From Octopus sinensis (Eukaryota), in assembly GCF_006345805.1 (NCBI RefSeq), contig NW_021832001.1, forward strand, positions 1 to 63,139: 63,139 bases of DNA, read 5' to 3'. Each line of letters starts with the position of its first letter. The stretch's first letter is position 1. The notes under the pieces are model-generated. The model was not told where the DNA came from. It did no database searches and saw only the letters and a program-made list of their open reading frames with translations. The position numbers and the translations under genes were made by a program. Positions 6,858-61,211 of this stretch are shown here, in pieces.

Positions 6858-7035
6858 TTTATTATATTGGGAAGATTTGAACAGGCAGAGGAAAGATGGA
6901 TATCGAATTTTGCACTCAGCCAAAGTCATAATGCCGATGGCAACATTCGAACTCACGACACCGACATCAATTGTTTAAATTACTTTAGCCACAAAGCCAT
7001 TTCGTCCCTGAGAGGGAGTAAATGAGAGAGAGAGG

Positions 7036-7483: not shown

Positions 7484-8317
7484 CTATTTCTTTATTACCC
7501 ACAAGGGGACAAACAAGGACAGACATAGGATTAAGTCGATTACATCAACCCCAGTGCGTAACTGGTACTTATTTTATCGACCCCAAAAGGATGAAAGGCA
7601 AAGTCGACCTCGGCGGAATTTGAACTCACAACGTAACGCAGACGAAATACCTATTTCTTTATTACCCACAAGGGGCTAAACACAGAGGGGGACAAACAGG
7701 ACAGACATAGGTATTAAGTCGATTACATCGACCCCAGTGCGTAACTGGTACTTAATTCATCGACCCCGAAGGATGAAAGGCAAAGTCGACCTCGGCGGAA
7801 TTGAACTCACAACGTAACGCAGACGAAATACCTATTTCTATTTCTTTATTACCCACAAGGGGCTAAACCACAGAGGGGGAAAAAAAGGGACAAACATAGG
7901 TATTAAGTCGATTACATGACCCCAGTGCGTAACTGGCACTTAATTTATCGACCCCGAAAGGATGAAAGGCAAAGTCGACCTCAGCGGAATTTGAACTCAC
8001 AACGTAACGCAGACGAAATACCGCTAAGCATTTCGCCCGGCGTGCTAACGTTTCTGCCAGCTCGCCGCCTTATTTCAATCATACCTATTTCTTTATTACC
8101 CACAAGGGGCTAAACATAGAGGGGACAAACAAGGACAGACATAGGTATTAAGTCGATTACATCGACCCCAGTGCGTAACTGGTACTTAATTTATCGACCC
8201 CGAAAGGATGAAAGGCAAAGTCGACCTCGGCGGAATTTGAACTCACAACGTAACGGCAGACGAAATACCGCTAAGCATTTCGCCCAGCGTGCTAACGTTT
8301 CTGCCAGCTCGCCGCCT
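7484..8317 (-). mobile_element. SINE family C trimer plus monomer
   Basis: Four ~180-230-bp units; the target sequence caatcatacct occurs three times (~7475, ~8076, ~8323). Confidence 0.9.
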
Positions 8318-8720
8318 TATTTCAATCATACCTGGTTCATCTTTGCCTTTGAGAGTCCAAGAGTAGGGGAAATGTACAATACCGCTAGTACCGCAATGGA
8401 ATAAATTAACTACACTTCGCTCATAAACTGTGTGGCCTTGGAAAATAAGTATAATAACGAAAGCTGTAGATTGATAGAACCGCAGAACGTCATGCAGGAT
8501 GTTTTGAGCGTGGTGATAGCTCTACATTTCGAATTCAAATCTGGTTGAAGTCGAGTACTTTGATTGTCATCCTTTCGTGGATAATCAAAATAAGTGTCAT
8601 CGAAGTCGGTATAATCATGAAATAGCGATATCAAAGGAGTCAAATGTATCTAGGTTATTCGTATCATTTTTGTGAATCAAAAGCTATCAAAAATGTTCAG
8701 ACTGACATATAGTTTTGTTT

Positions 8721-11244: not shown

Positions 11245-11313
11245 TTTTATTTTATTTTATTTTATTTTATCTAGTTTCAGCTCACGAGCTGTGGCCATGC
11301 TGGGGCACCGCCA
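11245..11313 (-). mobile_element. Extremely 5'-truncated 3' end of the CR1-type LINE with (TAAAA)n tail
   Basis: Reverse complement reads ggcggtgccccagcatggccacagctcgtgagctgaaact, matching the LINE end at 20273-20312. Confidence 0.85.
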
Positions 11314-11422
11314 TACAAGAACTTTAAGAACTTTATAGTTTGAGGGATATTTGAATATTTGATTGCTATTTTTGACTGAGCAAACAAGAAAAGGCTAAAC
11401 TCGCTGAATAGTATTAGTTGTA

Positions 11423-11453
<31 letters not shown>

Positions 11454-12337
11454 ATGGGGATGATGGTGGTGGTGTTTTGTCAATACTTTTGTGATTACCT
11501 TCGATTGAAGGAACGATGTCCTGCTAGTTGCTGGAATTTCAAAAGTAAAGACAGTAGTAGTAGTAGTAGTAGTAGTAGCAGTAGTGGTAGTAGTAGCTGC
11601 TGCTGTGTGTTGTTGTGTATATATTTTGTAGTAGCTGTTGTTGTCTTTGAAAACTAAGAAAAAAGGAATAATTCTATGCTTGTTATGTAGTTATTGTTGT
11701 TGCTGTTGTTGTTGTTGTTAAAACTATGTTATTGTTGTAGATCGTTTGTCATACTTCTAATGTTCCCGTTAGGGGGCAACATGGAGTAGGGGTGTAGTTT
11801 ACCAGATCAAAACAATGCTACCTTACGCAGTGTTTTTATTTTTATTACTATCCTTATTATTATTATTATTCTTTCTATTACTTTTAGGGATGCTTTTCTT
11901 TCTTTTTAGTTCATAACCAAAGTATTCTATGATGTAAAATAATCTCACTCCCTACAAACAAAAAAGGAAACAATTTGACGCGGGGTTATTTCTTTTAAAA
12001 TTTTGCATTCAACCTTCTACCTCTATTAAACTTTTCAAAATTAAAATATCGATTATTTTGTTTGCCTACATTTTTTTGTTCTATAACAACGATAATCCTT
12101 TTTTCATTTTGGCACAAGGCCAGCAATATTGAGGGAAGAGGGAAGTCGATAACAGCGACCCCAGAGCTCAACTGGTACATATTTTATCGACCCCCGAAAG
12201 GATGAAAGGCAAAGTTGACATCGGGGGCATTTGAACCTGGAACGTCATGTGTCGGAAGAAATATTTCTAGGTATTTTGTCAGACGTTCTAACGGTCTTGG
12301 CAGCTCACCGTTTTAATAATAATTATAATGATAATAA

Positions 12338-12632
12338 GGAGGCGCAATGGCCTAGTGGTTAGGGCAGCGAACTCGCGGTCGTAGGATCGTGGTTTCGATT
12401 CCCAGACCGGGCGTTGTGTGTGTTTATTGAGCGAAAACACCTTAAAGCTCCACGAGGCTCTGGCAGGAGGTGGTGATCCCTGCTGTACTCTTTCACCACT
12501 CTTTCTCTCACTCTTTCTTCTGTTGGCCTGCTCGCTTAGCCAGCGGGGTGGCGTCATTCGAAGGCTAAAACAATGCGAACGCATTGTGACCAGCGATGTG
12601 TAGCAACATCTGATGGTCTGGTCGGTCATGTG
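12338..12632 (+). mobile_element. SINE with family B head and body but a different 3' tail
   Basis: Follows family B up to ctttctctcactctt, then switches to an unrelated tail ending ggtcggtcatgtgat. Confidence 0.85.
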
Positions 12633-12656
12633 ATGGTGATGATGGTGATGATAATG

Positions 12657-12688
<32 letters not shown>

Positions 12689-12960
12689 CTTTTCTACTAT
12701 AGATGCAAGGTCTGTGATTCTGTGGGGGAGCTGGTCGATTACCTCGACCGAAGTACTCGACTGGTACTTATTTTATCGACCGAACTTGAAACAGAACATA
12801 AAGACGGACGAAATAACCCTTAGCATTTTGTCTGACGTGCTAATGATTCTGCCAGCTTGTAGCTTTGATAATCATAGTGGTAATAATAATAATAATAATA
12901 TAATAATATGATCCTTTCTTCTGCTCTCACTCAATAATAATAATAATAATAATAATAATA

Positions 12961-13350
12961 GGCGTAGGAGTGGCTGTGTGGTAAGTAGCTTGCTTACCAA
13001 CCACATGGTTCCGGGTTCAGTCCCACTGCGTGGCACCTTAGGCAAGTGTCTTCTACTGTAGCCACGGGCCGACCAAAGCCTTGTGAGTGGATTTGGTAGA
13101 CGGAAACTGAAAGAAGCCCGTCGTATATATGTATATATATATATATGTATGTGTTTGTGTTTGTACCCCCAACATCGCTTGACAACCGATGCTGGTGTGT
13201 TTACATCCCCGTAACTTAGCGGTTCGGCAAAAGAGACCGATAGAATAAGTACTAGGCTTACAAAGAATAAGTCCTGGGGTCGATTTGCTCGACTAAAAGG
13301 TGGTGCTCCAGCATGGCCACAGTCAAATGACTGAAACAAGCAAAAGAGTA
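12961..13350 (+). mobile_element. SINE family A, full length, in an (AAT)n tract
   Basis: A box TGGCTGTGTGG, B box GGTTCAGTCCC, CORE-like ttaggcaagtgtctt, internal TA run, family tail. Confidence 0.92.
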
Positions 13351-13370
13351 ATAATAATAATAATAATAAT

Positions 13371-14150
13371 CTCTTCTACTAAAGGCACGAGGCCTGTAAT
13401 TTTGGAGGGAGGGAGCTAGTCGATTACATCGACCCCAGTGCTCGACTGGTACTTATTTTATTGACTCCGAAAGGATGAAAGGTAAAGTCGACCTCGGCGG
13501 AATTTGAACTCAGAAACGTAGCGGCAGACGAAATACCTATTTCTTTATTACCCACAAGGGGCTAAACACAGAGGGGTCAAACAAGGACAGACATAGGTAT
13601 TAAGTCGATTACATCGACCCCAGTGCGTAACTGGTACTTAATTTATCGACCCCGAAAGGATGAAAGGCAAAGTCGACCTCGGCGGAATTTGAACTCAGAA
13701 CGCTAAGCATTTCGCCCGGCGTGCTAAAGATCCTTTTCTACTCTAGGTACAAGGCCCGAAATGTTTTGGGAGGGGGCCAGTCGATTAGATCGACTTCAGT
13801 ACACAACTGGTACTTAATTTATCGACCTCGAAAGGATGAAAAGCAAAGTCGACTTCTGCGGAATTTGAACTCATAGTGTAAAGAGCCGGAAGAAGCATTT
13901 TGTCCGACGCGCCAACGATTCTGCCAGCTCGCCGCCCCTACAATTCTGCTAACAATAATAATCCATTCTACTATAGGCAGAAGGCCTGAAATTTTAGGGA
14001 GGTTGTAAGTCGATTATATCGAGTCCGGTGCTATACTGGTATTTATTTCATCGACTCCGAAAGGATGAAAGGCAAAGTCGAGCCCGACGAAATTTAAACT
14101 CAGAGCGTAACGACAGATGAAATGCCGTTAAGTAGTTTGCCAGGCTTCTG
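13371..14150 (-). mobile_element. Cluster of about four SINE family C copies with long- and short-tail variants
   Basis: Repeated ctggtactta...gaaaggatgaaaggcaaagtcgac cores. Confidence 0.85.
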
Positions 14151-14170
14151 CTAATAATGTTAATAATAAT

Positions 14171-16245
14171 CCTTTCTTTTCTGGCCACAAAGGCCGAACA
14201 CAAAAATATTTAGGGACAATACATAACAAGGTACCAGTGGGGTTTAAAACGGAAAACGCGTAAACAATAAAAAACAAAGAGTTAACAAAAATTTAGCAAA
14301 ATTCCCCAATGGGGGTGGGGTGGAGTTTCACTCAAGGTCAACCAGGGCCAACCAGGGCACGCCAGGTAGGCACCCATCTTCCCCTCAACTGCTCCGGTTA
14401 CAGACGAACATTCAGAGCCATTTTCATAACATTCACCCACTTTTCAACAAAATTACTGGGGAGGCATTACTTCCTCTCTACCCTCACATTCCTTTTCAAG
14501 TGGAATTTGAAAAAGTAGATGAGGGGTCGGCCAATGAGGAAAATGTCTGTCGTCAGTCCTTTCAGCCTCGTCCACCACACTACCACCTTCGCTATAGCCA
14601 CCAGACAGAGGAAAACTGCCTTTCCCTCCCAGCCAAAAGAAGGCGGCGGGGAGATCCTCACAATGGACTCGGATGATAAACGGATTCGTCATACACGTGA
14701 CAGCAGCTGTTCAACAAAGCTCCACAAGTTAGTAATGCACGGACACTGGACAAATGCATTCAGGACGGTTCCATCACCCTGCACTCATCTTGGAAAGGTC
14801 CGTCTGACAGCACTACCGTGTCTGTAGAGCTTTTCCCGAACCAGCAAAGCTGCCAGTAGTACTGAGAGGCCAGAGATTTCTGGAAGTTATCCATAGGCCC
14901 TGGACCGAAAGTCCTCCGGAAAGGACCAGTTAGTTGATCTCTCCCGACACCCAGAATTTTCCCGAGTACGGCCTCGCTCTTTCCCTTCACTAATTCCCTA
15001 TAGAACTCCATAGTGGAACTTCCACCAACCTCGTTGCCCAACTAGCAGAAAGATATGAGCGCTTGCCGACACTCCAGGTGCTAAGTGCCTTTTATTGGTC
15101 TACGCTTGACCTAGGACTGTAGCTCCATCAATGAGACGAGCTGTGGAAAGCCTTGTTTGACGAACGATAACCACACCTGCCCACCTTTAAGGAAACGCTG
15201 GAGATGTCACAGCTTCAGCGCATGTTTGCGCATCATTAGCCACGGCATGCCCAGTCCTCCACTGTTGACGAGCAGAACACGTCCCTTCAATAGAAAGTGG
15301 AAGAGCAAGTGGAGAAAGGGACGACGGTCAGACTTCAGTAGATGACGGAAGCGATGTATGCATTCGCCACCTCCGCTCGATCCTTCAGGGACAGCTTCCT
15401 CTCTGCCCACTTCTGGGTGAGACTGGCTACTTTGCTTGTCACCTCCCCCCAGTTCTTGTTCACCTGGAGGTCTGGGCTAAACCAGATCCCGAGCAATTTA
15501 ACCGGTCCTTCCGCCCAGCTCCCTAAAAAGCTGTCGGGTAGCATAGACTTACCTCTCTAGGTGCCGAGCTGCAGGAGCACCGACTTTTGGTTTATCTTTG
15601 CTCCTATCACCACTTCGTACTCCCTTAGTGCAGTGTCGACCACCTCGATTTCCGTGATGTCCGGCACTATTACGGTGACGTCATCCGCATAAGCCGATTC
15701 AAAACTACCGCATTTTAGATCACGCAGGATGCCCCTCAAAACATCCATATTCCACAGCAATGGCTTAAGAGCCAGTACGTACAGAAGGGGCGAGAGTGGG
15801 CATCCTTGACGGACCGAACGAGCAATACTAAGCGATTCTGATAGGTGGCTGGTTACTTTGACCACCGAATGGATGTCGTTGTACATTGCTGTGATCTAGC
15901 CTCTGAAAACGGGACCGAAACCTGCTGCCGCGAGAACAGCCTCCAAGTATTGGTGGTCGTCCCTATCCAAATTGATCAGGGCCTCACCCATGCCAAGTTC
16001 TTTACACACCCTCTCAATTATGTAGCGCGTGAGATGGAGGTTGTTGTGGATAGTTCTATTTGGAATAGCGCGTTTTTGCGTATCACCAACCAACTTATCG
16101 ATGACAAGCGCCAACCTCTTGGCTAACCCTTTGACCGAAATCTTATAATCTTCGTTCATCAGAGTTATAGGCCTAAAATTATTAATTTTGTCCCCCTTGT
16201 TCGGGTGTTTCCCCAACAGCACCACCACTCTACGGCTCACAGCGC
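14171..16245 (-). mobile_element. 5'-truncated Tx1/L1-clade LINE, degenerate RT and C-terminus
   Basis: Minus-strand ORF pieces FRPITLMNEDYKI, SVRQGCPLSPLLY, AYADDVTV, LLGIWF, with stops and frameshifts. The 3' end abuts (ATT)n. Confidence 0.9.
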
Positions 16246-16937: not shown

Positions 16938-19900
16938 GGTTCTACCTGAAAGGTGCCTGCCGGCATGGAGAGGAAGGTGCAGGCTGCCGCTTTGCACATC
17001 CGGGACCCTGCCACAGAAACCAACCACCGAAAGGAATGGGATGGACCACGCATCACCGGCCCCAAAACGGAGGTACGCAGATGTGGTGCGTACCACAAAC
17101 CACCAACATGTTGTTGAAAGGGCAGCTGCTGAGCAGGAATCTTTTTGTGCATGGCACAAAAGATTGTACAGCAGCTAACCTGCTCCATCAGGCTCAGGTC
17201 GCAGATGGAACTGCCCACGTTTCACAAGACCGCCACAGCAGATGGACCCAGGGTGGACACCACCGGCAACAGCATACACCTCACCTCGATGCTCCTACTG
17301 AACATCAGAGGACTACTAACACACAGTAACAGGACAAAAGTCCCGTTCCTGAGAGACTTTGTCGCATGCAATCAAGCCTTATGCATAGCACTCACAGAAA
17401 CGCATCTGAAACCGACATAGCAGATGCGGAATTACACCTACCACAGTATGTTGTACTACGGACCGACAGGAAAAAAGAAGTCATGGAGGAGTTGCTATGT
17501 ACATCCGTGGGGACCTCACACCCCAGGTCCTTTTGTCATACTCAAACTCGGTGTGTGACACACTAATTGTCACATAAGGCAACTTGATGTAGTTGTGTGT
17601 GGCTACATATCGCCCTCCAGATGCCCCAAGTCATATGGGCAAGTTTGAGGACTGCCTTTTAAAAATAAAGTTCTAACCACATTAGAACAACACATAAGTG
17701 TACTTCTCATGGGAGACTTCAAGCTACCGAATGTCAGATGGCCCGAGGGCCTTTCTCTCCCAGGAATGACAAGATGTGAACGAGGACAGGCGAGGTCCCT
17801 CCTGAACCTCACCAACACCCTGTACATGGAGCAAGTAATACTCCAACCAACCAGAGCGGGTACACACTGGATCTCTGCTTCACAAATAATATGGATCTCA
17901 TCCATAAGTGAAAGTGACAAGACACACCGACACTACTCTCGGATCACAACATGGTAGAGCTGACCATGTACGGCCAAAAGAGAGCACGGACATGCAGCCT
18001 ACAAGAACCCTCAGAATCTTTCCAGCTTGAACTTCAATAAGGCAAACTGGAAACAAATGAGAAAGAGATCCTCAAACAAAACTGGCCTGAATGTCTCTCC
18101 TCGCCGGACATCGACATTACTTACTTCAACAATTCATGTCTGTAATGCAAGCCATATGCTACAAATGTGTCCCAGAGAGAAAGGCCACTGTACACACAAG
18201 AACAATCCCCAGAGAGAGAAAAATTTTAATGAGACGGGGCGCACAAAAATCTCAAATCGCCTAAACAACAAATTGAAAGCAGTGAAAAGTCCCGCCTGAA
18301 AATAAAACTGTTGGAAATTGAAAATTGTCTGCAACTCTCCCATGAAAGGAAAGAGCAGACAAAGAAGCCTGGGCTATAGACAAATATAAAACTAACCCCA
18401 GAGCTTTCTACAGGTATGCCAAAGAAACAGCTACGGTGCACTGTAGGATAGGGCCACTCCTTGAAAAGGATGGCACACTCACAGGAAAACCAATGAGGGT
18501 AAGTGAAATACTGAATGAACAATTCAAGAGTGTTTTCACTCCACCCCTTGGGCATTTCCAAATCAGCAATCCAACTGACATTTTACCACTGCAGATATAG
18601 AATCAGAGGCGGCGACGTTAAATTACATCGATATAAAGGAAGACGATGTAATAAAGGCTATAGATGAAATGAAAATAGACTCAGCTATTGGCCCCGATGG
18701 ATTCCCGGCAATCCTCCTAAAAGTATGTAAGAGAGTCTTAGCAAGACCACTGCAGTTCCTCTTTCAGAGCTTCCTTGCAGCTGGCAAACTTCCAAGAAAA
18801 CTGAAGGAAGGTAAAATATGCCCTATTCATAAAGGAGGTAGCAGAGCGAGGCCAAGAACTACAGACCTATCTCTCTGACCTCACACATCAGCAGGTCATG
18901 GAACGAATAGTCAGAAGGAAACTAATCACCTTCCTTGAAGAAAATGACTTGCTGCCTGAACGCCCAACATGGTTTCCGACCAGGAAGAAGCTGCTTAACT
19001 CAGCTCCTGCAGCACACTATGACTGGGTGCTGAAACAACTGCTCAACCACTCAAATGTGGAAGTCATATATCTCGACTTCGCAAGGCCTTCGATAAAGTC
19101 GATCATGGAATGACGTGATTTTGTCACAACTGCGTGAGCTTGGCATAGTTGAAAACTAGGAGAATGGCTTCACGACTTTCTGAAGAATAGAAGTCAGGTG
19201 GTAGTAGCCAATGGGCCACTTCCATTAACACGCAAATAGTGAGCGGTGTTTCCACAGGGCACTGTTTTGGGACCACTACTGTTCATAATGGCCCTCTCAG
19301 ACATGCCCTCAGCCACGCGGAGAGCCACGATCACAAGTTATGCCGATGATACAAAGTTTCACAGGCAATACAGAACCCTGAAGACACTAGCACCTGCAAT
19401 GAAGCTGGACGAAATATACAAGTGGGGCTGAAAAGAATAGCATGCAGTTCAATGCTGAAAAGTTCAAGCTTTATACTATCAGCATGCAAAACTGAATGCA
19501 ATAACCCAAGGAATACACTGGACCGGAGGGATTGCAATCCCAGAGGCACAATCAGTGCGTGACCTGGGTATTCACATGAGTGATGACGCGACCTTCATGT
19601 ACTGTTGCTAAACTGACAATGAAATGCAGACGGCTGGCTGGATGGATTCTTAGAACCTTTAGAACAAGAGAACAAGAAACCATGATGGTCCTCTGGAGAC
19701 ACTTGTCCTAGTCACTTTGACTATTGCTCTCAGCTATGGTCACCATCCAGTGTCAAGTTGATCACAGAACTTGAGGCGATCCAACGAAGCTACACGAAAG
19801 AAATAGCCTCTATGCAGAATGTAAGCTACTGGGAAAGACTCAAGAGATTAAAATTATATTCCCTGGAGCGTAGGCGGGAAAAGATATGCCATAATATACA

Positions 19901-20338
19901 TCTGGAAGATCCTGGAGGGAAGTGTCCTGAACTTTGCATCGAGAGTTACGCAAACGCCAGAACTGGGCGCCACTGCGTGGTGCCTAGGACTCCAAACTTG
20001 CCATCAAGATGTAGGGACAAGATTCTGTGATAGCCTGGGCTTCCGAGGCCCACAGCTCTTCAATATCCTCCCGATGAACCTGAGAGACCTGCATGGGGTG
20101 GATACAGATGTCTTTAAAATGGAGCTGGATCTCTCTCCTGTCAGGTGTCCAGATGAACCAACTTCACGCAGGAGGGGCAGATGAGGGCAGCTGCATCGAA
20201 CTCTCTCTGCACCAAATAAATAGCAGTTGCTAGAAAGCCTCCATGAAGTGAAACCAAGTAGCAACACCAAATGGCGGTGCCCCAGCATGGCCACAGCTCA
20301 TAAGCTGAAACTGGAATCAATCAATCAATCAATCAATC
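16937..20338 (+). mobile_element. CR1/L2-group LINE: ORF1 remnant, APE endonuclease and RT, frameshifted; (AATC)n tail
   Basis: LLLNIRGL..ALTETHL, MGDFKLP, GPDGFP, YLDFA, PQGTVLGPLLF, SYADDTK, SYWERLKRLKLYSLERRR; flanked by (TA)n on both sides. Confidence 0.92.
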
Positions 20339-21997: not shown

Positions 21998-22183
21998 TGC
22001 TGGCAGAAACGTTAGCACGCCGGGCGAAATGCGTAGCCGTATTTCGTCTGTCGTTACGCTGTGTTCAAATTCCGCCGAGGTCGACTTTGCTTTTCATCCT
22101 TTCGGGATGGAATCGACTTAAAACCTATGTCTGTCCTTGTTTGTCCCATCTATGTTTAGCCCCTTGTGGGTAATAAAGAAATA
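21998..22183 (+). mobile_element. SINE family C copy with internal deletion
   Basis: Head gctggcagaaacgttagcacg, B box ttcaaattcc, tail ttgtgggtaataaagaaatag. Confidence 0.85.
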
Positions 22184-30870: not shown

Positions 30871-32021
30871 CGGTAGAGAAAGATCAGAACTGGTTGAAAG
30901 TAAGCATGATAGGAGAGGCGGGGTTGGGGGAAAAGCACGGAGAAATATCAATTAAAAAAGGGGAAGAAATCAAGAAGAAAAATGAAAAGAAAGCTGAAAT
31001 TTTTCTTAAAACATGTAAAATAATTCTGAATTTTTTGAAGTTATCTCCCTTTTTCTTTCTGAGCCGCTTACAGTGTTACCGCTAGGTTTTTGTCTTCTTT
31101 CTCCGACTAAGAAATAATCTTGACTTAATTGAAAATATTTTGCGTCGGTCGTTCAATGCATGATTTTTTTTTAACATGTCTCAATTCGTACGATTCGTCC
31201 TCCCGAGGATTTTTCTCAAACATTTATTTCAATTTTTTAATGTATGCAAATTACTAGAGCTAAAACTACTTTTCGTGTCCGAAAGGTTGAAAGACAAAGT
31301 TGACCTTGGTGGAATTCGAACTCAAGGTAAAAAGGGCCGGAAAAATTATCTGCAAAGCATTTTTCGAACACTCGAGTGATTCTGCTAGCTCACTGCCGAT
31401 TGCCATTTTTCCCACCTTCACCGAACTTTCAATAAAGTCAACCAGGACAATACCTCTCTCTTCGCCGTCAAATTCCTTTTAAAGTGAAACTTGATAAAGC
31501 CGATGAGGCGGGTCTCCGAAAAGGAAAGACTCTGTCGCCACACTGCTTCTTTCGCTATAGGCCACCAAACAGAAGGAAATTGTTTTCTCTGACTGCTTAA
31601 GGCAAGAGGGTGAGGTTGTCATCATCATGAACTCAGCCGACAGCCAGATCCAGCTGTTCAGCAAATTTTAATAAATCAGTAATTCTCGGACTCGGAACGC
31701 AAGCATGTAGAACGATTTCGACGCTCTACTCACACCTCGGACAAACCTGTCGGAGGTTGTGAATCAATCTGTTCGTGATCGCGCACGTTCTTGCTTCCTT
31801 GACCAGACTACCGACAACAAGGACAACACTTTTCGGTAACATCGTGGTCAAAATCTTAAAATCTGTGTTTGGCAGGGTTATGAACAGAATATTGCCTATC
31901 ATGTTCCCTTTCTCAGCAGTGTTACAACTAGCCGGCTCACAAAGCTAGCAATTGTCTCGTTTTACTAGTTGTGACAGACGTTTGCCAAGAGGCTACCATA
32001 CAAATCTGGTTCAAACTCGTA

Positions 32022-32254
32022 GGCGCTGAGCTGGCAGACATGTTAGCGCACGCCGGGCGAAATGCGTAGCCGTATTTCGTCTGCCGTTACGCTCTGAGTT
32101 CAAATTCCGCCGAGGTCGACTTTGCCTTTCATCCTTTCGGGGTCGATTAAATAAGTACCAGTAACGCACTGGGGTCGATGTAATCGACTTAATACCTATG
32201 TCTGTCCTTGTTTGTCCCCTCTGTGTTTAACCCCTTGTGGGTAGTAAAAAAATA
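32022..32254 (+). mobile_element. SINE family C monomer, full length
   Basis: Exact 25-bp TSD catacaaatctggttcaaactcgta (31997-32021 and 32255-32279). Confidence 0.95.
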
Positions 32255-33521: not shown

Positions 33522-33865
33522 TGTTACTAGTAGTGATCTGGACGTTCCCAGGAATGGTTCTACACGTCTAAAGAAATTTGGCCTTCCAGCCCTTGGAGTA
33601 CAAACGGTCACAAGCCAAAGGCACCATCTTCGCTGATACTCATGTCCAGGACCACTAACTTGCAGTATCGGGCCAAGAAGATTATTCGTACCTTGAGAGC
33701 AATAATAATCCTTTCTAGTATAGGCACAAGGCCTGAAATTTGGGGGATGATGTAGTCGATTACATCGACCCCCAATACTCAATTGGTACTTAATTTATCG
33801 ACCCCGAAAAGATGAAAGGCAAAGTCGACCTCGAAAGCTAAAATTATTAATAATAATATAATAAA

Positions 33866-33899
<34 letters not shown>

Positions 33900-33980
33900 T
33901 AATAATAATAATAATAATAATATAATAATGACAATAATAATAATAATAATAATATAATAATAACAATAATAATAATAATG

Positions 33981-34027
<47 letters not shown>

Positions 34028-34450
34028 TAATAATAATAATATATGATAATAATAATAATAATAATAATAATCCTTTCTATTGTAGGCACAAGGCCTGAAA
34101 TTTGGTGGGAGGGACTGGTCGATTTCATCGACCCCTAGTACTTGACTGGTATTTATTGTATCGATTCCGAAAGGATAGAAGGCAAGTCTACCTCGGTGGA
34201 ATTTAAACTCAAAACATAAAGAGACACGAAATGCCGCTAAGCATTTTGTCAAGCATGATAACAATCCTGCCAGCTGGTCGCCTCGGCTACAACAACAACA
34301 ACATCAACAATGATTATAATAATCATAAAGGCAAAATTTAGAGGACTAATAGATCACCACCCACTGTCTTTTCCACTTATGTTCAGCAATGGTAAATGAT
34401 AAAATGATAAAAATGTAGCCCCACCTCATGTCATCCAACCTCATGTCATT

Positions 34451-34728: not shown

Positions 34729-35092
34729 CGGGAAGCTTTATGAAAATAAACAAAAGACGAAGGCAGGTGGAGTACAAACAAACAATTGTATTAGTATGGC
34801 GCTCAGGAATAGAAATAAAACAAGTCTTTTACGTTTCGAGCCTACGCTCTTCAACAAAAAGATACACAGAAAAGAAACACGGAGAGAAACAAGGAGAGAA
34901 AAAAAATGCGTGCAGAAGCTAGGGAATCAACATATATATATATATATAAATATATACGACGGGCTTCTTTCAGTTTCCGTCTACCAAATCCACTCACAAG
35001 GTGTTGGTCGGCCGGAGGCTATAGTAGAAGACACTTGCCCAAGGTGCCACGCAGTGGATCTGAACCCGGAACCATGTGGCTGGTAAACAAGC
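34451..35092 (-). mobile_element. SINE family A carrying an H2 element in its TA run
   Basis: Colinear SINE halves flank 34727-34930. Confidence 0.88.
34727..34930 (-). mobile_element. Subfamily H2 element with decayed hammerhead (34825-34862)
   Basis: Reverse complement of 22880-23081; core reads UUGUUGA. Confidence 0.8.
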
Positions 35093-36168: not shown

Positions 36169-36263
36169 TTATAACGCCCCTCTTAGACATAATATTTCAA
36201 AATTTATTTTCTTTTATTAAACAGAGGAGAGTTGTTGGTGGGCAGGAGATATAGGTAGATCAA

Positions 36264-37334
36264 AGCGGCGAGCTGGCAGAAACGTTAGCACGCCGGGCGA
36301 AATGCGTAGCCGTATTTTGTCTGCCGCTACGTTCTGGGTTCAAATTCCGTCGAGGTCGACTTTGCTTTTCATCCTTTCGGGGTCGATTAAATAAGTACCA
36401 GCTACGCACTGGGGTCGATATAATCGACTTAATCCGTTTGTCTGTCCTTGTTTGTCCTCTCTGTGTTTAGCCCCTTGTGGGTAGTAAAGAAATAGGTATT
36501 TTGTCTGCCGCTACGTTCTGGGTTCAAATTCAGTCGAGGTCGACTTTGCCTTTCATCCTTTCGGGGTCGATTAAATAAGTACCAGTTACGCACTGGGGTC
36601 GATATAATCGACTTAATCCGTTTGTCTGTCCTTGTTTGTTCTCTCTGTGTTTAGCCCTTTGTGGGTAGTAAAGAAATAGGTATTTTGTCTGCCGCTACGT
36701 TCTGGGTTCAAATTCGGTCGAGGTCGACTTTGCCTTTCATCCTTTCGGGGTCGATAAATTAAGTACCAGTTACGCACTGGGGTCGATATAATCGACTTAA
36801 TCCGTTTGTCTGTCCTTGTTGGTCCTCTCTGTGTTTAGCCCCTTGTCTGCCGCTACGTTCTGGGTTCAAATTCGGTCGAGGTCGACTTTGCCTTTCATCC
36901 TTTCGGGGTCGATAAATTAAGTACCAGTTACGCACTGGGGTCGATATAATCGACTTAATCCGTTTGTCTGTCCTTGTTGTCCTCTCTGTGTTTAGCCCCT
37001 TGTCTGCCGCTACGTTCTGGTTCAAATTCGGTCGAGGTCGACTTTGCCTTTCATCCTTTCGGGGTCGATAAATTAAGTACCAGTTACGCACTGGGGTCGA
37101 TATAATCGACTTAATCCGTTTGTCTGTCCTTGTTGGTCCTCTCTGTGTTTAGCCCCTTGTCTGCCGCTACGTTCTGGGTTCAAATTCCGTCGAGGTCGAC
37201 TTTGCCTTTCATCCTTTCGGGGTCGATAAATTAAGTACCAGTTGCGCACTGGGGTCGATGTAATCGACTTAATCCCTTTGGCTATTCTTGTTTGTCCCCT
37301 CTACGTTTAGCCCCTTGTGGGCAATAAAGAAATA
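36264..37334 (+). mobile_element. SINE family C hexamer within one TSD
   Basis: One full head plus five headless units; 17-bp TSD aggagatataggtagat (36244-36260 and 37335-37351). Confidence 0.92.
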
Positions 37335-37627: not shown

Positions 37628-38761
37628 ATTTCATATTTCTTTATTGCCCAGACAAACAAGGACAGACAAAGGGATTAAGTCGATTACATCGACCCCAGTG
37701 CGTAACTGGTACTTAATTTATCGACCCCGAATGGATGAAAGACAAAGTCGACCTCGGCGGAATTTGAACTCAGAACAAAAAGACAGACGAAATACCTATT
37801 TCTTTACTACCCACAAGGGACTAAACACAGAGAAGACAAACAAGGACAGATAAATGGATTAAGTCGATTACATCGACCCCAGTGGGTAACTGGTACTTAA
37901 TTTATCGACCCCTAAAGGATGAAGGCAAAGTCGACCTCGGCGGAATTTGAACTCAGAACGGAAAGATAGACGAAATACCTATTTCTTTACTACTCACAGG
38001 GGGCTAAACACAGAGAGGACAAACAAGGGCAGATAAACGTATTAAGTCAATTACATCGACTCCAGTGCGTAACTGGTACTTAATTTATCGTCCCCGAAAG
38101 GATGAAGGCAAAGTCGACCTCGGCGGAATTTGAACTTGGAACGTAACGGCAGACAAAATACGTATTTCTTTACTACCCACAAGGGGCTAAACACAGAGAA
38201 GACAAACAAGGACAGATAAATGGATTAAGCCAATTACATCAACCCCAGTGCGTAACTGGTACTTAATTTATCGACCCCGAACGGATGAAAGGCAAAGTCG
38301 ACCACGGCGGAATTTGAACTCAGAACAAAAAGACAGACGAAATACCTATTTCTTTACTACTCACAAGGGGCTAAACACAGAGAAGACAAACAAGGACAGA
38401 TAAATGGATTAAGTCGATTACATCGACCCCAGTGCGTAACTGGTACTTAATTTATCGACCCCGAAAGGATGAAGGCAAAGTCGACCTCGGCGGAATTTGA
38501 ACTCAGAACGGAAAGACAGACGAAATACCTATTTCTTTACTACCCACAAGGGACTAAACACAGAGAAGACAAACAAGGACAGATAAACGGATTAAGTCGA
38601 TTACATCGACTCCAGTGCGTAACTGGTACTTAATTTATCGACCCCGAAAGGATGAAGGCAAAGTCGACCTCGGCGGAATTTGAACTCGGAAGGTAACGGC
38701 AGGCGAAATACGGCTACGCATTTCGCCCGGCGTGCTAACGTTTCTGCCAGCTCGCCGCCTT
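37628..38761 (-). mobile_element. SINE family C hexamer within one TSD
   Basis: Six ~183-bp units; 15-bp TSD atcaaaagtattctt (37613-37627 and 38762-38776). Confidence 0.92.
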
Positions 38762-45837: not shown

Positions 45838-46052
45838 GTATGTCAGAAATGCTATGAAGGTGCTAAAGGATGTAGAAATATAGTAGAGGTGTCAAAGGAA
45901 GCAGAAATTCACTGGAAATATTTATGAAAAATCAGAAATGTGATACAGAATAATAAAAAGGCACAAAATGCTGAAGATGTATCAATAGAAGTGCCACGAA
46001 GTTACCAAAACGAGAAAAGAAAGAATTGCAATGTAGATATTAATTTTAAAAT

Positions 46053-46621: not shown

Positions 46622-46952
46622 GGCGTAGGAGTGGCTGTGTGGTACGTAACTTGCTTACGAACCACATGGTTGCGGGTTCAGTCTCATTGCGTGGCACCTT
46701 GGGCAAGTGTCTTCTACTATAGCCTCTGGCCGACCAAAACCTTGTGAGTGGATTTGATAGACGGAAACTGAAAGAAGCCCGTCATATATATGTATATCTA
46801 TATATATATACACATATATATATATATATACTTATTCTATCGGTCTCTTTTGCCGAAACGCTAAGTTACGGGGACGTAAACACACCACCATCGGTTGTCA
46901 AGCGATGTTGGGGGGACAAACACAGACACACAGATACATACACACACACACA

Positions 46953-47310: not shown

Positions 47311-47489
47311 ACTGTGACCTACGGGTCTTTCTGAATAATACGTCTAATAAAAAATTATCTTGAATTTTTTTAGTTGTATAGCCCGCCTGATGGTGCGCTG
47401 TGTCTCACGTTGCTCTTCTCGGAAAAAGATTGCCCGTGCTTGATTTATACTGTTGAAACGTTAAAGAAGGTAAGGATATAATAGGGATA

Positions 47490-48800: not shown

Positions 48801-49990
48801 AACAGTGTTAAAAAATGAAAAAGTAGAAATCAACAGAGAAAGGTAGCAGAGATGCATTTGAGACTTTAAAAGGAAACAGAGATAAAGTGGAATTATCAAA
48901 AGGAAGCTAAATGTCAGTGGAAAAGTTAAAGGTAGGGAAATTTCAGAAAGTTCTAAAATGAGAAAGATAAAAAAAAAAAACAGAATGGAATTAGTTTTTG
49001 GAAAGTGAAGAAAAAGGACGAAAAAGACGAATGAAATAAGATTTGAGAAGAGACGTGAAAAAAAGCCCCCAAAAATGTATGAGAATTCGAAAGGTAAAAA
49101 AGGAAGAAGTGCAGCAAAATGGATGAGGACTTATGAGGAAATGAAGTTGAAGAGGAAGAATAAAGTTGATGATGATGAGGATGATGATGATGATGATGAG
49201 AAGGAGGAGGAGGAGGAGGAAGGGGAGGTGGAGGAGGCGGAGTGTGGCGGCGGCGGCGGTGGTGGCGTGATAATGATGATGATGATGAGGAGGAGGAGGT
49301 GGTGGTGGAGGAATGTGGTGACGGCGGTGGTGGTGATGATGATGATAAGGAGGAAGACGACAGTTATGATGATGATGATGATGATGTTAGTGGTGATGGT
49401 CATGATGGTGATGGGCAGTGTTGGTAAATATGATGGTTAGAGTGTAGTGATGCAGAGTGTAGTAGTAGTGCAAGTGATGGTGGAGTTGGTGGTGATAATG
49501 ATGAAGATGATGACGATGACGACGACGACGATAATGATCGTGGGAGAAAGCCAGAAAAGAAGACGACTTTACCTTTCATCCTTTCTGAGTCGCTAAAATA
49601 GGTACCAGTTGAATACTGGAGTCAATGTAATCGACTCATCCCTTTCGCCGAAATTGCTGGCTTTGTGTCAAAATTTAAAACCATTATTATTTCCTCTTTA
49701 TCACAGGTTTTTTTGGAGCTCCTGGAGTCTTGCATGCGTATCGGGCTTACTACCTGCAGCCTACGGTACCATGTTATTAGTTCTTTTCAGCTATCTAATA
49801 CTTTCCTGATTATTCTGGCCGTGCCAAGGAGGCAAACCGTTTGTAACAGTTCTACTGGACACTCTATTCCTGTTTCCTTTATATTCCTCTTGATGCCTTC
49901 TGATACTGTTCCCAAGGACCCACCAAAAATGGCGCTTCATTTTCCATAGCCGGGCTATTTCGTACTTAAGAGGGTTGTATCTATCTTTCC

Positions 49991-50228
49991 TATTTCTTTA
50001 CTACCCACAAGGGGCTAAACACAGAGGGGGACAAACAAGGACAGACAAACGGATTAAGTCGATTACATCGACCTCCAGTGCATTACTGGTACTTAATTTA
50101 TCGACCCCGAAAGGGATGAAAGGCAAAGTCGACCTTGGCGGGATTTGAACTCAGAACATAGCGGCAGACGAAATACGGCTACGCATTTCACCCGGCGTGC
50201 TAACGTTTCTGCCAGCTCGCCGCCTTTT
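49991..50228 (-). mobile_element. SINE family C monomer inside the R4/Dong endonuclease region
   Basis: TSD tatctatctttcc (49978-49990 and 50229-50241). Confidence 0.93.
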
Positions 50229-55506: not shown

Positions 55507-56497
55507 GAATTAATGTACGTGTAAACCAACTCATAACCACTTTCTTCAGAGCTCTAGCATTGTCCATGGAAACGAGCGATAGTGTACTATAAGGACATGC
55601 AGTTCAATTAATGAATTCAAAACATTATCGATAATGATCCGGAAAAATGATAATCATCACCAAAGAACTTCAAGTTTCGGAGTGGACTATCAGAACTGCG
55701 GTGCACAAGGGCATTCGGTAGAAATCGTGCGAACTGAAGAGAGGTCAGTTAATGTATGAAAAGACACAGGAAAGCCGTTTGATCAGTATCAAGCAGTTAC
55801 TTAACAAGTCTAATATCCTTTAAGAACATGACATGCTTTGATTCTTCTCCGATGTGGAAAACTTCGACCAAGACCAAAGGTCATATAGGAGAAATGACTG
55901 ATGGTAATGTTTAGTTTATCCTGATGTCCCTATGTAGGGAATTAATAATAATGATACACCCCTCCCACGTGACGAATGGAAAGTAAAGAGAAGTACATGG
56001 AGTACGGGAGAACGTAGGAGGAGGTCTGAGACAGTCGTGACTTTACTGGTTTTACTAAGTATACTGTATACTGAAGTGGGTGTTATAATAATCCGACATT
56101 TTAAGGATTACAACAGTAAGTCTCAAGCAATTGTAATGGTTGTACTAATACAGGATCATAGACACATGCACAAGGCAAGATATCTTAAGGCTTCTAACGT
56201 GACTCTCTACTAGTCGTTCATATAATAATCCTGAATCATGTTATGTTATGACAAAGTCGTGTATTTACTGGTAGTGACGACACATTATAAGCGAAAAAAC
56301 ATGGAAATATGTCGGTAAGCAGAAGTTAATTAAATCTAAAAAGGTAGCACATGGTGGTACGGGAAAAAGATTATATTTTTCGGTGAATTCGTATGTAGTG
56401 CAATATTTCAAGAACAAACGAAAAAGACAAAGATGTATGTATCAAAAGAATCACTTGGCACAGAGTGGATTGAAATATAGATTGAAATGTGTGGAAA

Positions 56498-57806
56498 TAT
56501 ACCCGAGGAAGAACATATGGCATTGTGGAGGTGCGTTTCACGACGGAGGATGAAGCGATTAAGAATTCAACAGAAGCAATACGAACAGAGGAATGGGTGT
56601 TTTTGCCGTCCTACTGTGGCAAACGTGTTGCCAGAGTAAGAGTTGGCAGAGTGCCACCAGAGATAAAAGAAACATGGCTGATGGCAGCCATCATGTACAA
56701 TATGGAGGAGGAGACCAAGATTCTCAAGGCGACAAGAAACAAAAAGGGTGAACTATTAAGGATATGGCATAGAAATGGCCATTCAAGCTAGTATAGATGG
56801 CCTCAATAGAATCGCGGAAGAAATAGTTCTGCTTCAGGACGTAAGGCTGCGAGTGGTGTTGGAGGGTAGGCCGCCTATATGCTATGTATGTGGAGAAAAG
56901 GGCCACATAAAGAGAGAACAACAGATGGAACAGACGGAGAAGCAAGAGAGTGCAGACCAAGAGGTACAAGTCGAGGTAAAGGAGACAAGAATGGAAGAAG
57001 GATTTACGGTAGTAAAAAAAAGAAAGAGAAGTGATAGAGTAAGCTCTCCGCCAGAAGGGGCAGAAAAAGAAGAAAGAAAATGTAGAGAAAGAAATTATGA
57101 AGGAAGTCAGAAGGAAAGAATATAAAATGGTGGTTGACAAGGAGATCGAAAGAAACTTGAAAAGGAGCTCGAAGAGGAGTTGCAGAAGGAGGAGACAGCA
57201 GCAAAAACATTGATTGTACGAGTAGAGGAATAGGATTCAGGAGAACAATTATACGAGGGTGAAATAGAGAGATTATTTAGAGTGGAAAGAGAAAAGGTAC
57301 CAGCAGTGGAGCAGGAAAAGAGAAAGCAAGTAAGAAAACCCCCAAAATATCGATGGAATTTTGTGACATATGCGAAAAACAAGGAAACAGAACGGAAAAT
57401 AAAGAAATTTAAGTTTATCATAAGGGTGAAGCTTCCCACAGACGTGTATTCAGAAAATGTGAAGGCCATTGTGATCGACAGGGAGAAATACAACAGGTTG
57501 AGAGATATGTGTGGAGAGGGAATTGATCCGCCAGGAGTAGCGGTGGATTTCGATGAATTGCCACCGGTAGTGGAACTGAAAGATCTTGAACCTTTTATGA
57601 AATACTAAAAAAGGGAAAAAGTAAATAAAATTCTTTATCGGAAAAAAAGTTTAAAAAAAAGTAAAATGGGACTGCATGAGGAGTGGGGCCCATGCAGCCA
57701 TTTCATTTTCCTTATATAACATCTTCATTTTCATTCGTTTTATGTTTTTTGTCCCTACTGTAATGTTCGGTCTGTGTTATGGCCGTAGTGCCAAATAAAG
57801 AAAAGA
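56498..57806 (+). mobile_element. ORF1-only (HAL1-like) non-LTR element, copy 1, 5'-truncated and frameshifted
   Basis: Gag-like ORF with CYVCGEKGH knuckle and FTVVKKRKR, stop at ~57607, short UTR, Tx1-like 3' module, no ORF2. Confidence 0.7.
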
Positions 57807-57829
57807 GTACGTTGTAAGCGGTGAGACAT

Positions 57830-59600
57830 ATTTGCATCAATTGGAGTTAATTTTGTCGTGTTTTCTCGATTGCTGTTAGACGTAAGTCACTTTGTTAAAT
57901 ATTTGTTGAAGGTCTCCCCTCGTGGGTGTACCCAAGATTATTGATTGTAACTGTTGAAATTGCTGTTCTTGTTATTGTTGAATTGTTGTTCTTTTTCCCA
58001 TTGCGGGAAAGATGGAGAAAGTGCCAGTAGGAGGCCACAGTTATGCGGCAGCAACTGGTAGAGAAATGGAGGTTGAAGCTTTGGAGGTCCGCGAAGTGAA
58101 AGTTGAGCCGAAGGAGATGAAAGAATGTGAGAAATTATTGAAAAGGGAGGGAAACACGTTGAGACTAACGCCACCTGAGGAACTCACAAGTAGTATAACC
58201 AAGAGAATAGTGATTTTTAAAACACTGAAGGTGTCAAGTAGGAAGATCAAAATAGCAACAACTGAGGCTATTGAGAATTGTTTGAAGGATATTAAGAAAT
58301 TCACAACGTTCATCACACGTGGAAGGAGGTATGGAAAAGTGGAGGTGCGTTTCGCGATGGAGGACGAAGTGGTTAAGCACTCCACGGAAGCCATAAGAAC
58401 GGAAGAATGGGTACTTTTGCCGACGTACTATGGCAAGCGTGTTGCCAGGGTGAGAGTTGGCAAAGTACCCCCAGAGATAAAGGAAACATGGCTGATGGCG
58501 GCCATAATATTTGACATGAAGGGAGATGCCAAGATACTCAAGGCAACGAAAACCAAAAGGTTGAATTATTGGAGGTATGGCATAGAGATGGCCATACAAG
58601 CGAGTTTGGAAGACCTCAACAGAATTGCAGAAGAAATAGTTCTGCACGAGGATATAAGGCTAAGAGTGGTTGGTGGTGGTGGGTAGGCCTCTCATATGCT
58701 ACTTGTGTGGAGAAAAAGGGCCATATGAAGGCGACGTGCCCCCAGAAAGAAAATGAACAACAGATGGAACAGACTGTGGCGCAGGAGAGTGTAGACTAAG
58801 TGGTACACTTCGATGTAAAGGAGGCAAGAACAGAGGAGGAATTCACGGTGGTCAAAAAGAGAAAGAGAAGTGAAAGAGTAAGCTCTCTGCCAGAGAGGCA
58901 GAAACAGAAAAAAGAAGTGGTTAAGGAGATGGCGAAAGAGGTTGTGAAGGAAGTCAGAAGAGAGGAAGGGGAGAAGATGGTTGATAAGGAGATTGAAAAG
59001 GAGCTTGAAGAGGAGCTCGAGGAGGGGTTTCAGAAGGCGGAGACAGCAGCAAGGACACTGGTTATACCAGTGGAGGAAAATAATTTAGGCGAACAACTGT
59101 ATGAGGGTGAAATGGCGAAACTATTCAGAGTGGAGGAGGAAAAAGAAAAAGTACCAGGAGTGGCGCAAGAAAAGGAAAAACAAGCAAGGAAGGCGAAAAA
59201 ATACCGATGGAATTTGGTGACATACACTAAAAATAAAGAAACTGAACGGAAAATAATGAAATTTAAGTCCATTATAAGGGTTAAGTTGTCCACAGATGTG
59301 TATTCGGAGAACGTGAGGGCCATTGTGGTCGACAAGGAGAGGTACAACAGGCCGAAAAATATGTGTGGAAGAGGCATTGATACGGCATTGATAGTTGCGG
59401 TGGAATTTGATGAATTGCTACCAGTGGTTGAATTGAAAGATCTTGAACCTTTCATGAGATATTAAAAAAGGAAAAAAAGTAAAATCGCTTTATGTAAGAA
59501 AAAAAAAAGTAAAATTGATTTATTTTAAAAAAGAAAACGATGATAAAGGAAAAAAACAAAGGAATAATGAACGATTGGAAACGAGTGCGAGGAATATTCA
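57830..59600 (+). mobile_element. ORF1-only (HAL1-like) element, copy 2 (ORF 58012-59465, disrupted)
   Basis: N-terminal SYAAA; CYLCGEK/GHMKATC knuckle at 58697-58739 with a 1-nt frameshift; same C-terminus ELKDLEPFM(K/R)Y* as copy 1. Confidence 0.7.
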
Positions 59601-59619
59601 TGCAGTATATGGGGATCGA

Positions 59620-60998: not shown

Positions 60999-61156
60999 TA
61001 CATACATACATACATACATATACATACACTCACACATACATACAAACATGCATATATATATTTATGTTTGTGTGTGTCTCTCTCTATATATACATACACA
61101 CATATATTTACATATATATATTGATAGATAGATACCATATGTGTATATTATATATA

Positions 61157-61211
<55 letters not shown>

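What the first reader, a model, noticed from the sequence alone, without database searches (positions are those of the whole stretch)
14171..14225. One 3' module shared by a Tx1 LINE, an ORF1-only element and SINE-C
Seen: the Tx1 3' end (minus) reads ttgtccctaaatatttttgtgttcggcctttgtggccagaaaagaaa. The ORF1-only end at ~57749-57803 reads ttgtccctactgtaatgttcggtctgtgttatggccgtagtgccaaataaagaaa. The SINE-C tail reads ttgtcccctctgtgtttagccccttgtgggtagtaaagaaa. All share TTGTCCC...TGTT-hairpin-AAAGAAA. Established: mammalian L1 recognises poly(A), whereas stringent LINEs recognise a 3' sequence. Inference: a three-member system of RT donor, ORF1-only satellite element and SINE, using a sequence-specific tail.
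Basis: partly seen in the sequence, partly recalled or inferred. Interest (0 to 1): 0.75.

Follow-up and report, generated by a model that had tools for sequence, protein, structure and literature searches.

The report
Shared hairpin tail of octopus retrotransposons
In this octopus-like DNA, a broken L1/Tx1-type jumping gene, a version of such an element that keeps only its first gene, and a short parasitic repeat all end in a similar small RNA hairpin, which suggests that this class of copying enzyme recognises a structured tail in animals rather than only a poly(A) run.

Summary
The three tails are there and are alike beyond chance. A profile built from SINE-C tails alone ranks the L1/Tx1 end first and the ORF1-only end second among all non-SINE positions of the window; two other LINE ends in the window do not score. 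The conserved core is not TTGTCCC but a 4-bp stem with a YTTGT loop followed by an A-rich end. The stem covaries across tail classes. Best reading: a family of related, stringent-type recognition tails from several L1/Tx1 lineages, captured more than once by SINE-C and kept by a HAL1-like ORF1-only element. One donor serving all three is not shown: identity is only 15-21 of 32 nt, loops and ages differ, the LINE copy is dead, and only one LINE end and one ORF1-only end were available. SINE/LINE tail sharing and ORF1-only LINEs are known kinds; I found no tail-based animal Tx1-SINE pair in ten literature searches. New variant of a known kind; interest 0.5.

The parts
14173..14219 (-). 3' tail of the L1/Tx1-type LINE copy
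   Evidence: lies at the end of a ~225-nt 3' UTR after the ORF2 stop (14398-14400)
14183..14195 (-). LINE hairpin: stem GGCC/GGCC, loop TTTGT
14161..14172 (-). GG(ATT)n run right after the LINE tail; same ending as SINE-C tail B; either part of the LINE end or target sequence
14398..16243 (-). ORF2 remnant: RT and C-terminal region, no endonuclease, stops and two frameshifts, 5'-truncated
   Evidence: Pfam RVT_1 E 4e-14; 54-61% to an Argonauta hians RT protein in three frames; best PDB match human L1 ORF2p E 1e-15, R2 7e-8
56422..57608 (+). ORF1 copy 1, 5'-truncated and broken; zinc knuckle; stop at 57606-57608
   Evidence: 77% to copy 2 over 1213 columns; zf-CCHC E 3.5e-4; 5' limit
57609..57803 (+). 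195-nt 3' UTR of ORF1 copy 1, no ORF2
   Evidence: no convincing tblastn match of five ORF2 proteins in 55401-63139 (three chance-level hits, E 0.24-0.95)
57780..57793 (+). ORF1-only hairpin: stem TGGC/GCCA, 6-nt loop CGTAGT, followed by AATAAAGAAA (to 57803)
   Evidence: an alternative 5-bp stem one register upstream is the single-sequence minimum
57804..59515 (+). ORF1 copy 2 abutting the tail of copy 1: putative 5' UTR, ATG 58012, stop 59463-59465, A-rich spacer; its 3' tail is absent, a mariner fragment follows from ~59584
   Evidence: N-terminal 224 aa fold as two RRM-like domains
7485..8318 (-). SINE-C tail-A array, four units
13364..14150 (-). cluster of four SINE-C copies directly downstream of the LINE end, same strand (tails B, B, A, B)
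21999..22183 (+). SINE-C tail A, single, internally deleted
32021..32254 (+). SINE-C tail A, single, 25-bp target duplication, inserted in a second L1/Tx1 fragment
36262..37334 (+). SINE-C tail-A array, six units
37634..38761 (-). SINE-C tail-A array, six units (a doubled trimer)
49991..50226 (-). SINE-C tail A, single, 13-bp target duplication
33703..34284 (-). two SINE-C copies with tail B1 (stem AGGC/GCCT, end AGAAAGG(ATT)n)
12093..12860 (-). two SINE-C copies with tail B; the one ending at 12093 has the B2 stem TGGC/GCCA, the same stem as the ORF1-only element
49564..49688 (+). SINE-C fragment with tail B2
31402..32010 (-). second L1/Tx1 fragment, internally deleted, 3' UTR missing, so it gives no second LINE tail

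Best explanation
The tails are homologous 3' recognition signals of a group of related L1/Tx1-clade LINE families in an octopod genome. The signal is a U-rich stretch, a 4-bp stem closing a YTTGT-type loop, and a short A-rich end. ORF2p of these LINEs binds the hairpin and starts target-primed reverse transcription at the end just behind it (inferred from the L2 model). SINE-C, a tRNA-headed SINE, captured such ends more than once (older tail B, younger tail A) and is copied in trans. The ORF1-only element is an internally deleted LINE of the HAL1 kind that kept ORF1 and a tail. Shown: positions, similarity, covariation, target duplications of tail-A copies. Inferred: homology, protein binding, trans-mobilisation. 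The dead copy at 14173-16243 is a relative of the donors, not demonstrably the donor of either SINE tail.
For: SINE-only profiles find the two ends without being trained on them: tail-A HMM, best two non-SINE hits are the LINE end (E 0.049) and the ORF1-only end (E 0.10); tail-B HMM, best non-SINE hit is the LINE end (E 0.0008). A 32-nt A+B HMM gives the LINE end E 2.3e-4; a weight matrix with pairing term ranks LINE (19.2) and ORF1-only (14.9) first and second outside SINE-C; 0 of 1500 random 121-nt stretches reach 14.9 (max 13.6), and the CR1-like and Dong/R4-like LINE ends score -5.9 and -13.6. Stem: 92.6% of 68 cells paired, 3 of 4 pairs change on both sides, covariation 0.744 against 0.222 shuffled (0 of 500) and at most 0.233 when slid; RNAalifold predicts the same stem unaided. 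A stem-loop descriptor hits 14 SINE-C tails, the LINE end and the ORF1-only end and nothing else; 0.2 expected (written after seeing the data). Tail-A insertions have 13-25-bp target duplications at 5 of 6 loci, as made by APE-type LINEs. The ORF1 has the RRM+CCHC build reported for Tx1-type ORF1, and the two copies differ mostly at third codon positions (17/20/37 and 9/11/31), so the gene was under selection. Conserved loop with exchangeable stem is the pattern shown for L2 tails (PMC4176376).
Against: Only one LINE end and one ORF1-only end could be examined. Identity of the LINE and ORF1-only cores to SINE tails is 15-21 of 32 nt, below the 72-95% of published bivalve pairs and below the 30 of 39 nt of the CR1-like/SINE-B pair in this window. 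The ORF1-only end alone is weak against SINE profiles (E 1.9 with the short HMM; 204 of 3000 without the last 10 nt) and breaks two of four pairs in the gapless register. The covariation counts related copies, about five independent variants, and the register was chosen by me; the SINE-only alignment put A and B two columns apart. No target duplication was found for the LINE copy, the ORF1-only element or four tail-B copies. No ORF1-ORF2 fusion linking this ORF1 to an RT was found (weak tests).
Confidence: 0.6

Rival explanations
1. Strict reading of the first reader: one LINE family, represented by the copy at 14173-16243, is the RT donor for both the ORF1-only element and SINE-C.
For: The LINE end bridges the other variants: it shares its upstream part with the ORF1-only end and tail A, and its last 14 nt with tail B. 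L2 stems are exchangeable, so stem differences need not block recognition.
Against: Loops differ (TTTGT, CTTGT, CGTAGT), and in L2 the loop decides specificity. Tails A and B differ about fivefold in divergence and in their ends and insertion habits. O. vulgaris has 80 L1-Tx1 consensus families (PMC13282606 supplement), so closer donors are likely.
Confidence: 0.15
2. The last ~50 nt behind the LINE are a truncated, diverged tail-B SINE-C that inserted there, not the LINE's own end.
For: The LINE end heads a same-strand cluster of four SINE-C copies and ends AGAAAGG(ATT)n exactly like tail B; tail-B HMM E 0.0008; its identity to B copies (15-21 of 32) overlaps the low end of B-B identities (17-30).
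Against: No SINE body precedes it; it needs an ~8-nt insertion or two compensatory stem changes to fit tail B; its best match in the window is the ORF1-only end, 43 kb away and not next to any SINE-C; without the ATT run the match to B1 is modest (42 of 3000), although the match to one B2 copy stays strong (0 of 3000).
Confidence: 0.12
3. Convergence: U-rich sequence, a short GC hairpin and an AATAAA-like A-rich end are generic 3'-end or polyadenylation features that arose separately.
For: AATAAA is present in the ORF1-only end and in many tail-A copies; similarity drops when the last 10 nt are removed; single tails do not fold unusually well.
Against: Same stem length, loop sequence and spacing with compensatory changes; two other LINE ends and two other SINE ends in the window do not score; LINE vs ORF1-only stays at 13 of 3000 without the A-rich end.
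Confidence: 0.1
4. The module belongs to another LINE clade not represented by a 3' end in this window (for example RTE), and both SINE-C and the L1/Tx1 elements took it over by template switching.
For: Long target duplications and short terminal repeats also fit RTE-driven SINEs (own knowledge); RTE is abundant in octopus.
Against: No third kind of element carries the module in the window (26 hits above 27 bits, next 13.9); two L1/Tx1-type ends would both have had to acquire it.
Confidence: 0.05

Closest known systems
Stringent SINE/LINE pairs (UnaL2/UnaSINE, ZfL2; CR1, L2, RTE, Nimb pairs; PMC3747384 Table 1, PMC4176376, PMC11481361)
   Same: Short shared 3' tail with a stem-loop, compensatory stem changes and a conserved loop; tail swapping on one SINE body (also PMC4824008).
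   Different: Partner is L1/Tx1-type, a clade absent from the animal rows of the 58-pair table; identity is lower (47-66% vs 72-95%); no assay.
Maize LINE1-1_ZM / ZmSINE2-3 and Chlamydomonas L1-1_CR / SINEX-3_CR (PMC3472496, PMC3747384)
   Same: L1-clade LINE sharing a ~50-nt hairpin tail with SINEs; variable stem, conserved loop and flank.
   Different: Those three are the only L1-clade pairs in that survey and are in plants and an alga; this case is in an animal and includes an ORF1-only element.
SINEU / Tx1-Mar of crocodilians (PMC4494074)
   Same: SINEs thought to be mobilised by Tx1; tandem SINE insertions sandwiching a target duplication.
   Different: SINEU have snRNA heads and poly(A) tails; the link rests on target preference, and no LINE sharing the SINEU-1 3' end was found. 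Here the link is the tail.
ORF1-only LINE derivatives HAL1 (L1), HeT-A (Jockey), Ag-Sponge (CR1) (PMC5786205, PMC5753468)
   Same: ORF1 kept under selection, ORF2 absent, LINE-type 3' end; head-to-tail neighbours recall HeT-A (own knowledge).
   Different: No Tx1-derived example is in that list; here the junction is seen in one copy only.
Bivalve tandem SINE arrays TSD-(SINE)n-TSD (PMC11481361) and reptile SINE satellites (PMC10702118)
   Same: First unit with a full head, later units with the same head truncation, one pair of target duplications around the array.
   Different: Here most internal units keep the whole tail and start exactly at the 3' arm of a long head hairpin.

Membership tests
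Stringent SINE/LINE pair | SINE tail similar to the extreme 3' end of the LINE | tested here: met
   SINE-only HMMs hit the LINE end at E 2.3e-4 to 0.049; weak by published standards (15-21 of 32 nt)
Stringent SINE/LINE pair | stem-loop with compensatory changes and conserved loop | tested here: met
   about five independent variants
Stringent SINE/LINE pair | overlapping periods of activity | tested here: inconclusive
   tail A 2.6%, tail B 14%; no consensus to date the single LINE copy
Stringent SINE/LINE pair | tail needed for trans-mobilisation by the LINE protein | not testable with these tools
   needs a cell assay
L1/Tx1 group of LINEs | RT closest to L1-type ORF2; APE-RT-zinc-finger build | tested here: met
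   PDB: L1 ORF2p E 1e-15 vs R2 7e-8; many full-length relatives carry PF03372, PF00078, PF13966; the endonuclease is lost from this copy
Tx1 clade proper | groups with reference Tx1 elements in an RT tree | not tested
Tx1 clade proper | target-sequence preference | tested here: inconclusive
   no target duplication for the LINE copy; tail-A insertion sites all follow a C (5 of 5) and 10 of 17 tail-A ends join one site of the SINE head
ORF1-only LINE derivative (HAL1 kind) | LINE-type ORF1 | tested here: met
   two RRM-like domains (model pLDDT 86.6; Foldseek E 8e-6 to IMP3 RRM12; VIA Z 8.6, rmsd 2.4, 81 aligned, a middling score) plus CCHC; this build is not specific to Tx1
ORF1-only LINE derivative (HAL1 kind) | no ORF2 between ORF1 and the 3' end | tested here: met
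   copy 1: 195 nt from stop to end, no convincing ORF2 match; copy 2 is cut off after the spacer and cannot tell
ORF1-only LINE derivative (HAL1 kind) | amplified as a family with the same junction, with target duplications | tested here: inconclusive
   one copy shows the junction; no duplication found; 432 protein clusters of relatives but without genomic context
ORF1-only LINE derivative (HAL1 kind) | ORF1 homologous to the ORF1 of the partner LINE | tested here: inconclusive
   the LINE copy has no ORF1; no fused ORF1-ORF2 found
tRNA-derived SINE | tRNA-like head with A and B boxes, short, multicopy, target duplications | tested here: met
   ~240 nt, 28 copies by body motif, duplications; boxes read by eye from recalled consensus; ARAGORN and Rfam found no tRNA
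Named octopus SINEs OK, OR1, OR2 and the Meta/CORE superfamilies | match to the family consensus | tested here: inconclusive

The most novel reading that the evidence does not exclude
Octopod L1/Tx1 LINEs are stringent: they recognise a small YTTGT-loop hairpin rather than poly(A), and this one module family supports a whole guild of parasites, namely a selected ORF1-only derivative and a SINE that has re-captured the tail from successive LINE families. It would be the first tail-based L1/Tx1-SINE partnership in animals. The same RT would also build the SINE arrays by end-to-end template jumping from SINE RNA cut at the apex of its head hairpin.
Probability: 0.35. Interest if true: 0.72.

Novelty: new variant of a known kind. 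Interest (0 to 1): 0.5.

Why it matters
Whether the ancestor of L1-clade elements recognised a specific 3' structure, and lost it in mammals and most plants, is an open proposal resting on three plant and algal pairs (PMC3472496). An animal L1/Tx1 lineage with a covarying hairpin shared by its parasites would be an independent case, and L1-Tx1 families are reported as recently active in O. vulgaris (13 families, 421 insertions; PMC13282606), so an intact ORF2 for an assay probably exists. It would also name a driver for one of the SINE families that make up about 12% of that genome.

Tried and rejected
Single-sequence folding of 11 tail windows gave no clear signal for the hairpin (the one z of -3.1 comes from a body hairpin). 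TTGTCCC as the anchor was rejected. Similarity upstream of the last 60 nt of the two 3' UTRs: none. The second L1/Tx1 fragment has no 3' UTR, so no second LINE tail. ORF1 copy 2 has no tail (score 2.8). Searches for longer or fused relatives of ORF1 found nothing; the ORF1 profile gave only E 0.008 and 0.04 on 2 of 120 ORF2 relatives. Pfam on 27 of the 150 ORF1 relatives showed zinc knuckles in 9, unrelated host domains in a few, and no RT or endonuclease. Rfam and ARAGORN gave nothing relevant. The covariance model R1 was trained on the LINE and ORF1-only ends too, so its hits on them are not evidence; it served only to show no further carrier. SINE-only alignments by MAFFT placed tails A and B two columns out of structural register; the register used comes. 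A hit at 6981-6999 (E 0.12) has no element around it. The idea that SINE-C is a MetaSINE was not supported by the bivalve Meta sequences read. The Dong/R4-like fragment had no PDB match. Names and sources of the ORF1 relatives, and an Atlas label for the RT, were not obtained. No eukaryotic genome collection was available, so other copies of these elements stayed unchecked.

Full report
Setting. The window is AT-rich, full of microsatellites, SINEs and mariner remnants. The best named relatives of the RT are from Argonauta hians (60%) and Octopus bimaculoides, so an octopod genome is inferred.

The observation. The LINE and ORF1-only ends are quoted correctly; the SINE tail is a consensus. The LINE end closes a ~225-nt 3' UTR behind a broken ORF2 remnant at 14398-16243. 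The RT is L1/Tx1-type: its best solved match is human L1 ORF2p, ahead of R2, and many full-length relatives have endonuclease, RT and zinc-finger domains. Membership of Tx1 proper was not tested against references. The ORF1-only end closes 195 nt after the stop of a 5'-truncated ORF1 and directly abuts a second ORF1 copy, 77% identical, that has lost its own 3' end. The ORF1 models as two RRM-like domains followed by a CCHC knuckle, the type I build that PMC5203782 finds consistent with Tx1 but which other LINE clades share.

Is the likeness real? Pairwise tests against dinucleotide shuffles gave 0 to 11 of 2000 for the seven LINE, ORF1-only and tail-A comparisons; block shuffles that keep local composition gave 1 to 19 of 3000 for five such comparisons. 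The stronger test is blind. An HMM from 15 tail-A copies has, outside SINE-C, the LINE end and the ORF1-only end as its best two hits (E 0.049, 0.10), and an HMM from 9 tail-B copies has the LINE end first (E 0.0008). A weight matrix from 16 SINE tails (8 of the 20 A, 8 of the 9 B) scores them 19.2 and 14.9; none of 1500 random stretches reaches 14.9; the CR1-like and Dong/R4-like LINE ends and the ends of two other SINE families score -5.9 to -13.6 (those two clade labels are recalled from motifs, with only a weak endonuclease hit). The ORF1-only link is the weaker: E 1.9 with the short HMM, and not significant against tail A once the last 10 nt are removed. Its link to the LINE end is firmer (best of 12,614 tiles; 13 of 3000 without the A-rich end).

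What is conserved. Not TTGTCCC, which is out of register and also common in another SINE. The core is a 4-bp stem, a 5-nt YTTGT loop and an A-rich end. Stems: GGCC/GGCC (LINE), GCCC/GGGY (tail A), AGGC/GCCT (tail B1), TGGC/GCCA (tail B2 and, with a 6-nt loop, the ORF1-only element). On 17 distinct rows 92.6% of cells pair and 3 of 4 pairs change on both sides, above all 500 shuffles and all slid controls; RNAalifold finds the same stem. The rows are related, so this amounts to about five independent variants, and I chose the windows so that the stems were in register.

Of 35 matches to the SINE-C body motif, 19 carry tail A and 9 tail B; 7 were other sequence or had no recognisable tail. A 20th tail-A copy lacks that motif. 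Tail A is young (median 2.6% from consensus) with 13-25-bp target duplications at 5 of 6 loci; tail B is older (14%), ends in GG(ATT)n and tends to sit in ATT runs. The LINE copy ends like tail B in its last 14 nt and like tail A and the ORF1-only element further upstream. So SINE-C has swapped between related tails, as described for other SINE bodies (PMC4824008, PMC11481361).

Mechanism. By analogy with zebrafish L2, where ORF2p binds the tail stem-loop, the loop gives specificity and stems can be exchanged (PMC4176376), the module is most likely the ORF2p binding and priming signal. Shown here: location, similarity, covariation, target duplications. Inferred: binding, trans-mobilisation, descent of the ORF1-only element from the same LINE group. 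Identity is 15-21 of 32 nt, against 30 of 39 for a conventional pair in the same window (CR1-like end and SINE-B). That points to a family of cousins rather than one donor; O. vulgaris has 80 L1-Tx1 consensus families. The main rival for the LINE end, a truncated tail-B SINE that landed there, is not excluded with one copy, but does not explain the match to the ORF1-only end.

Comparison. Tail-sharing pairs are well known for CR1, L2, RTE, Nimb and others. A survey of 58 pairs lists only three with L1-clade tails, all in plants and an alga, and none for Tx1 (PMC3747384, PMC3472496). SINEU was tied to Tx1 by target preference; it has poly(A) tails and no LINE sharing its 3' end was found (PMC4494074). 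ORF1-only derivatives are known from L1, Jockey and CR1 (PMC5786205). I found no tail-based Tx1-SINE pair and no Tx1-derived ORF1-only element in ten searches. The library lacks most subscription papers and I could not see Repbase or Dfam entries, where such a pair may be noted.

What I saw of each paper. PMC4824008: parts 1-3 of 6, supplement part 1 and one search. PMC3472496: part 1 of 3. PMC13282606: part 1 of 3 and one supplement search. PMC3747384: passages and part 1 of the tables section. PMC4494074: passages and section 16. PMC4758252, PMC5786205, PMC4176376, PMC11481361, PMC10702118, PMC5203782, PMC11203168, PMC5753468, PMC8967140, PMC3531059: passages only. Ohshima and Okada 1994 (octopus SINEs), Bao and Jurka 2010 (HAL1) and Bibillo and Eickbush 2004 (template jumping): seen only as citations. 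Figures and unread supplements of these papers hold consensus sequences that could name SINE-C.

Verdict. Observation confirmed and sharpened; interpretation partly supported; new variant of a known kind; interest 0.5.

Noticed in passing
window 7485-8318 (-), 13364-13727 (-), 36262-37334 (+), 37634-38761 (-): SINE-C arrays: 10 of 17 tail-A ends join the same site of the SINE head, the first base of the 3' arm of a 12-bp hairpin with a UAGC loop. One pair of target duplications flanks a whole array; one array is a doubled trimer. Fits RT template jumping from RNA cut at the loop, or targeted insertion into the head; not resolved. Similar arrays are described in a bivalve.
   Followed up: partly
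window 13364-13727 (-): A tail-A unit is joined at that same site to a unit ending in tail B, so the two tail types meet in one array.
   Followed up: partly
window 8333, 32005, 36244, 38776, 50243 (approximate flanks of tail-A insertions): All five clear target duplications of tail A are preceded by C and four start with a purine, a possible endonuclease signature; noticed after the fact.
   Followed up: partly
window 20273-20311 (+) and SINE-B ends such as 13299-13337 (+); orphan end 11270-11314 (-): A second, conventional SINE/LINE pair: the 3' end of a CR1-like LINE (17600-20330) matches the SINE-B tail at 30 of 39 nt.
   Followed up: yes
window 49690-52240 (-): Dong/R4-like LINE (label recalled) whose 3' end lies in the ATT run of a tail-B SINE on the other strand; it is itself interrupted by a tail-A SINE and by a palindromic MITE-like element at 51109-51382.
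   Followed up: partly
window 57803/57804: ORF1 copy 2 begins directly at the tail of copy 1, head to tail, without a visible spacer; the pair lies between two mariner-type remnants.
   Followed up: partly
window 13049-13066, 35017-35031, 46710-46724, 61617-61635: Tail B shares CTATAGTAGAA with the reverse complement of the central domain of SINE-B (weak hits); probably chance or an old module exchange.
   Followed up: no
window 47484-48942 and 45844-45917: Array of ~21-nt repeats, possibly a repetitive coding exon or minisatellite.
   Followed up: no
window 13237-13350 (+), 61320-61430 (-): SINE-B carries a body segment resembling the SINE-C body, suggesting a shared central module.
   Followed up: no
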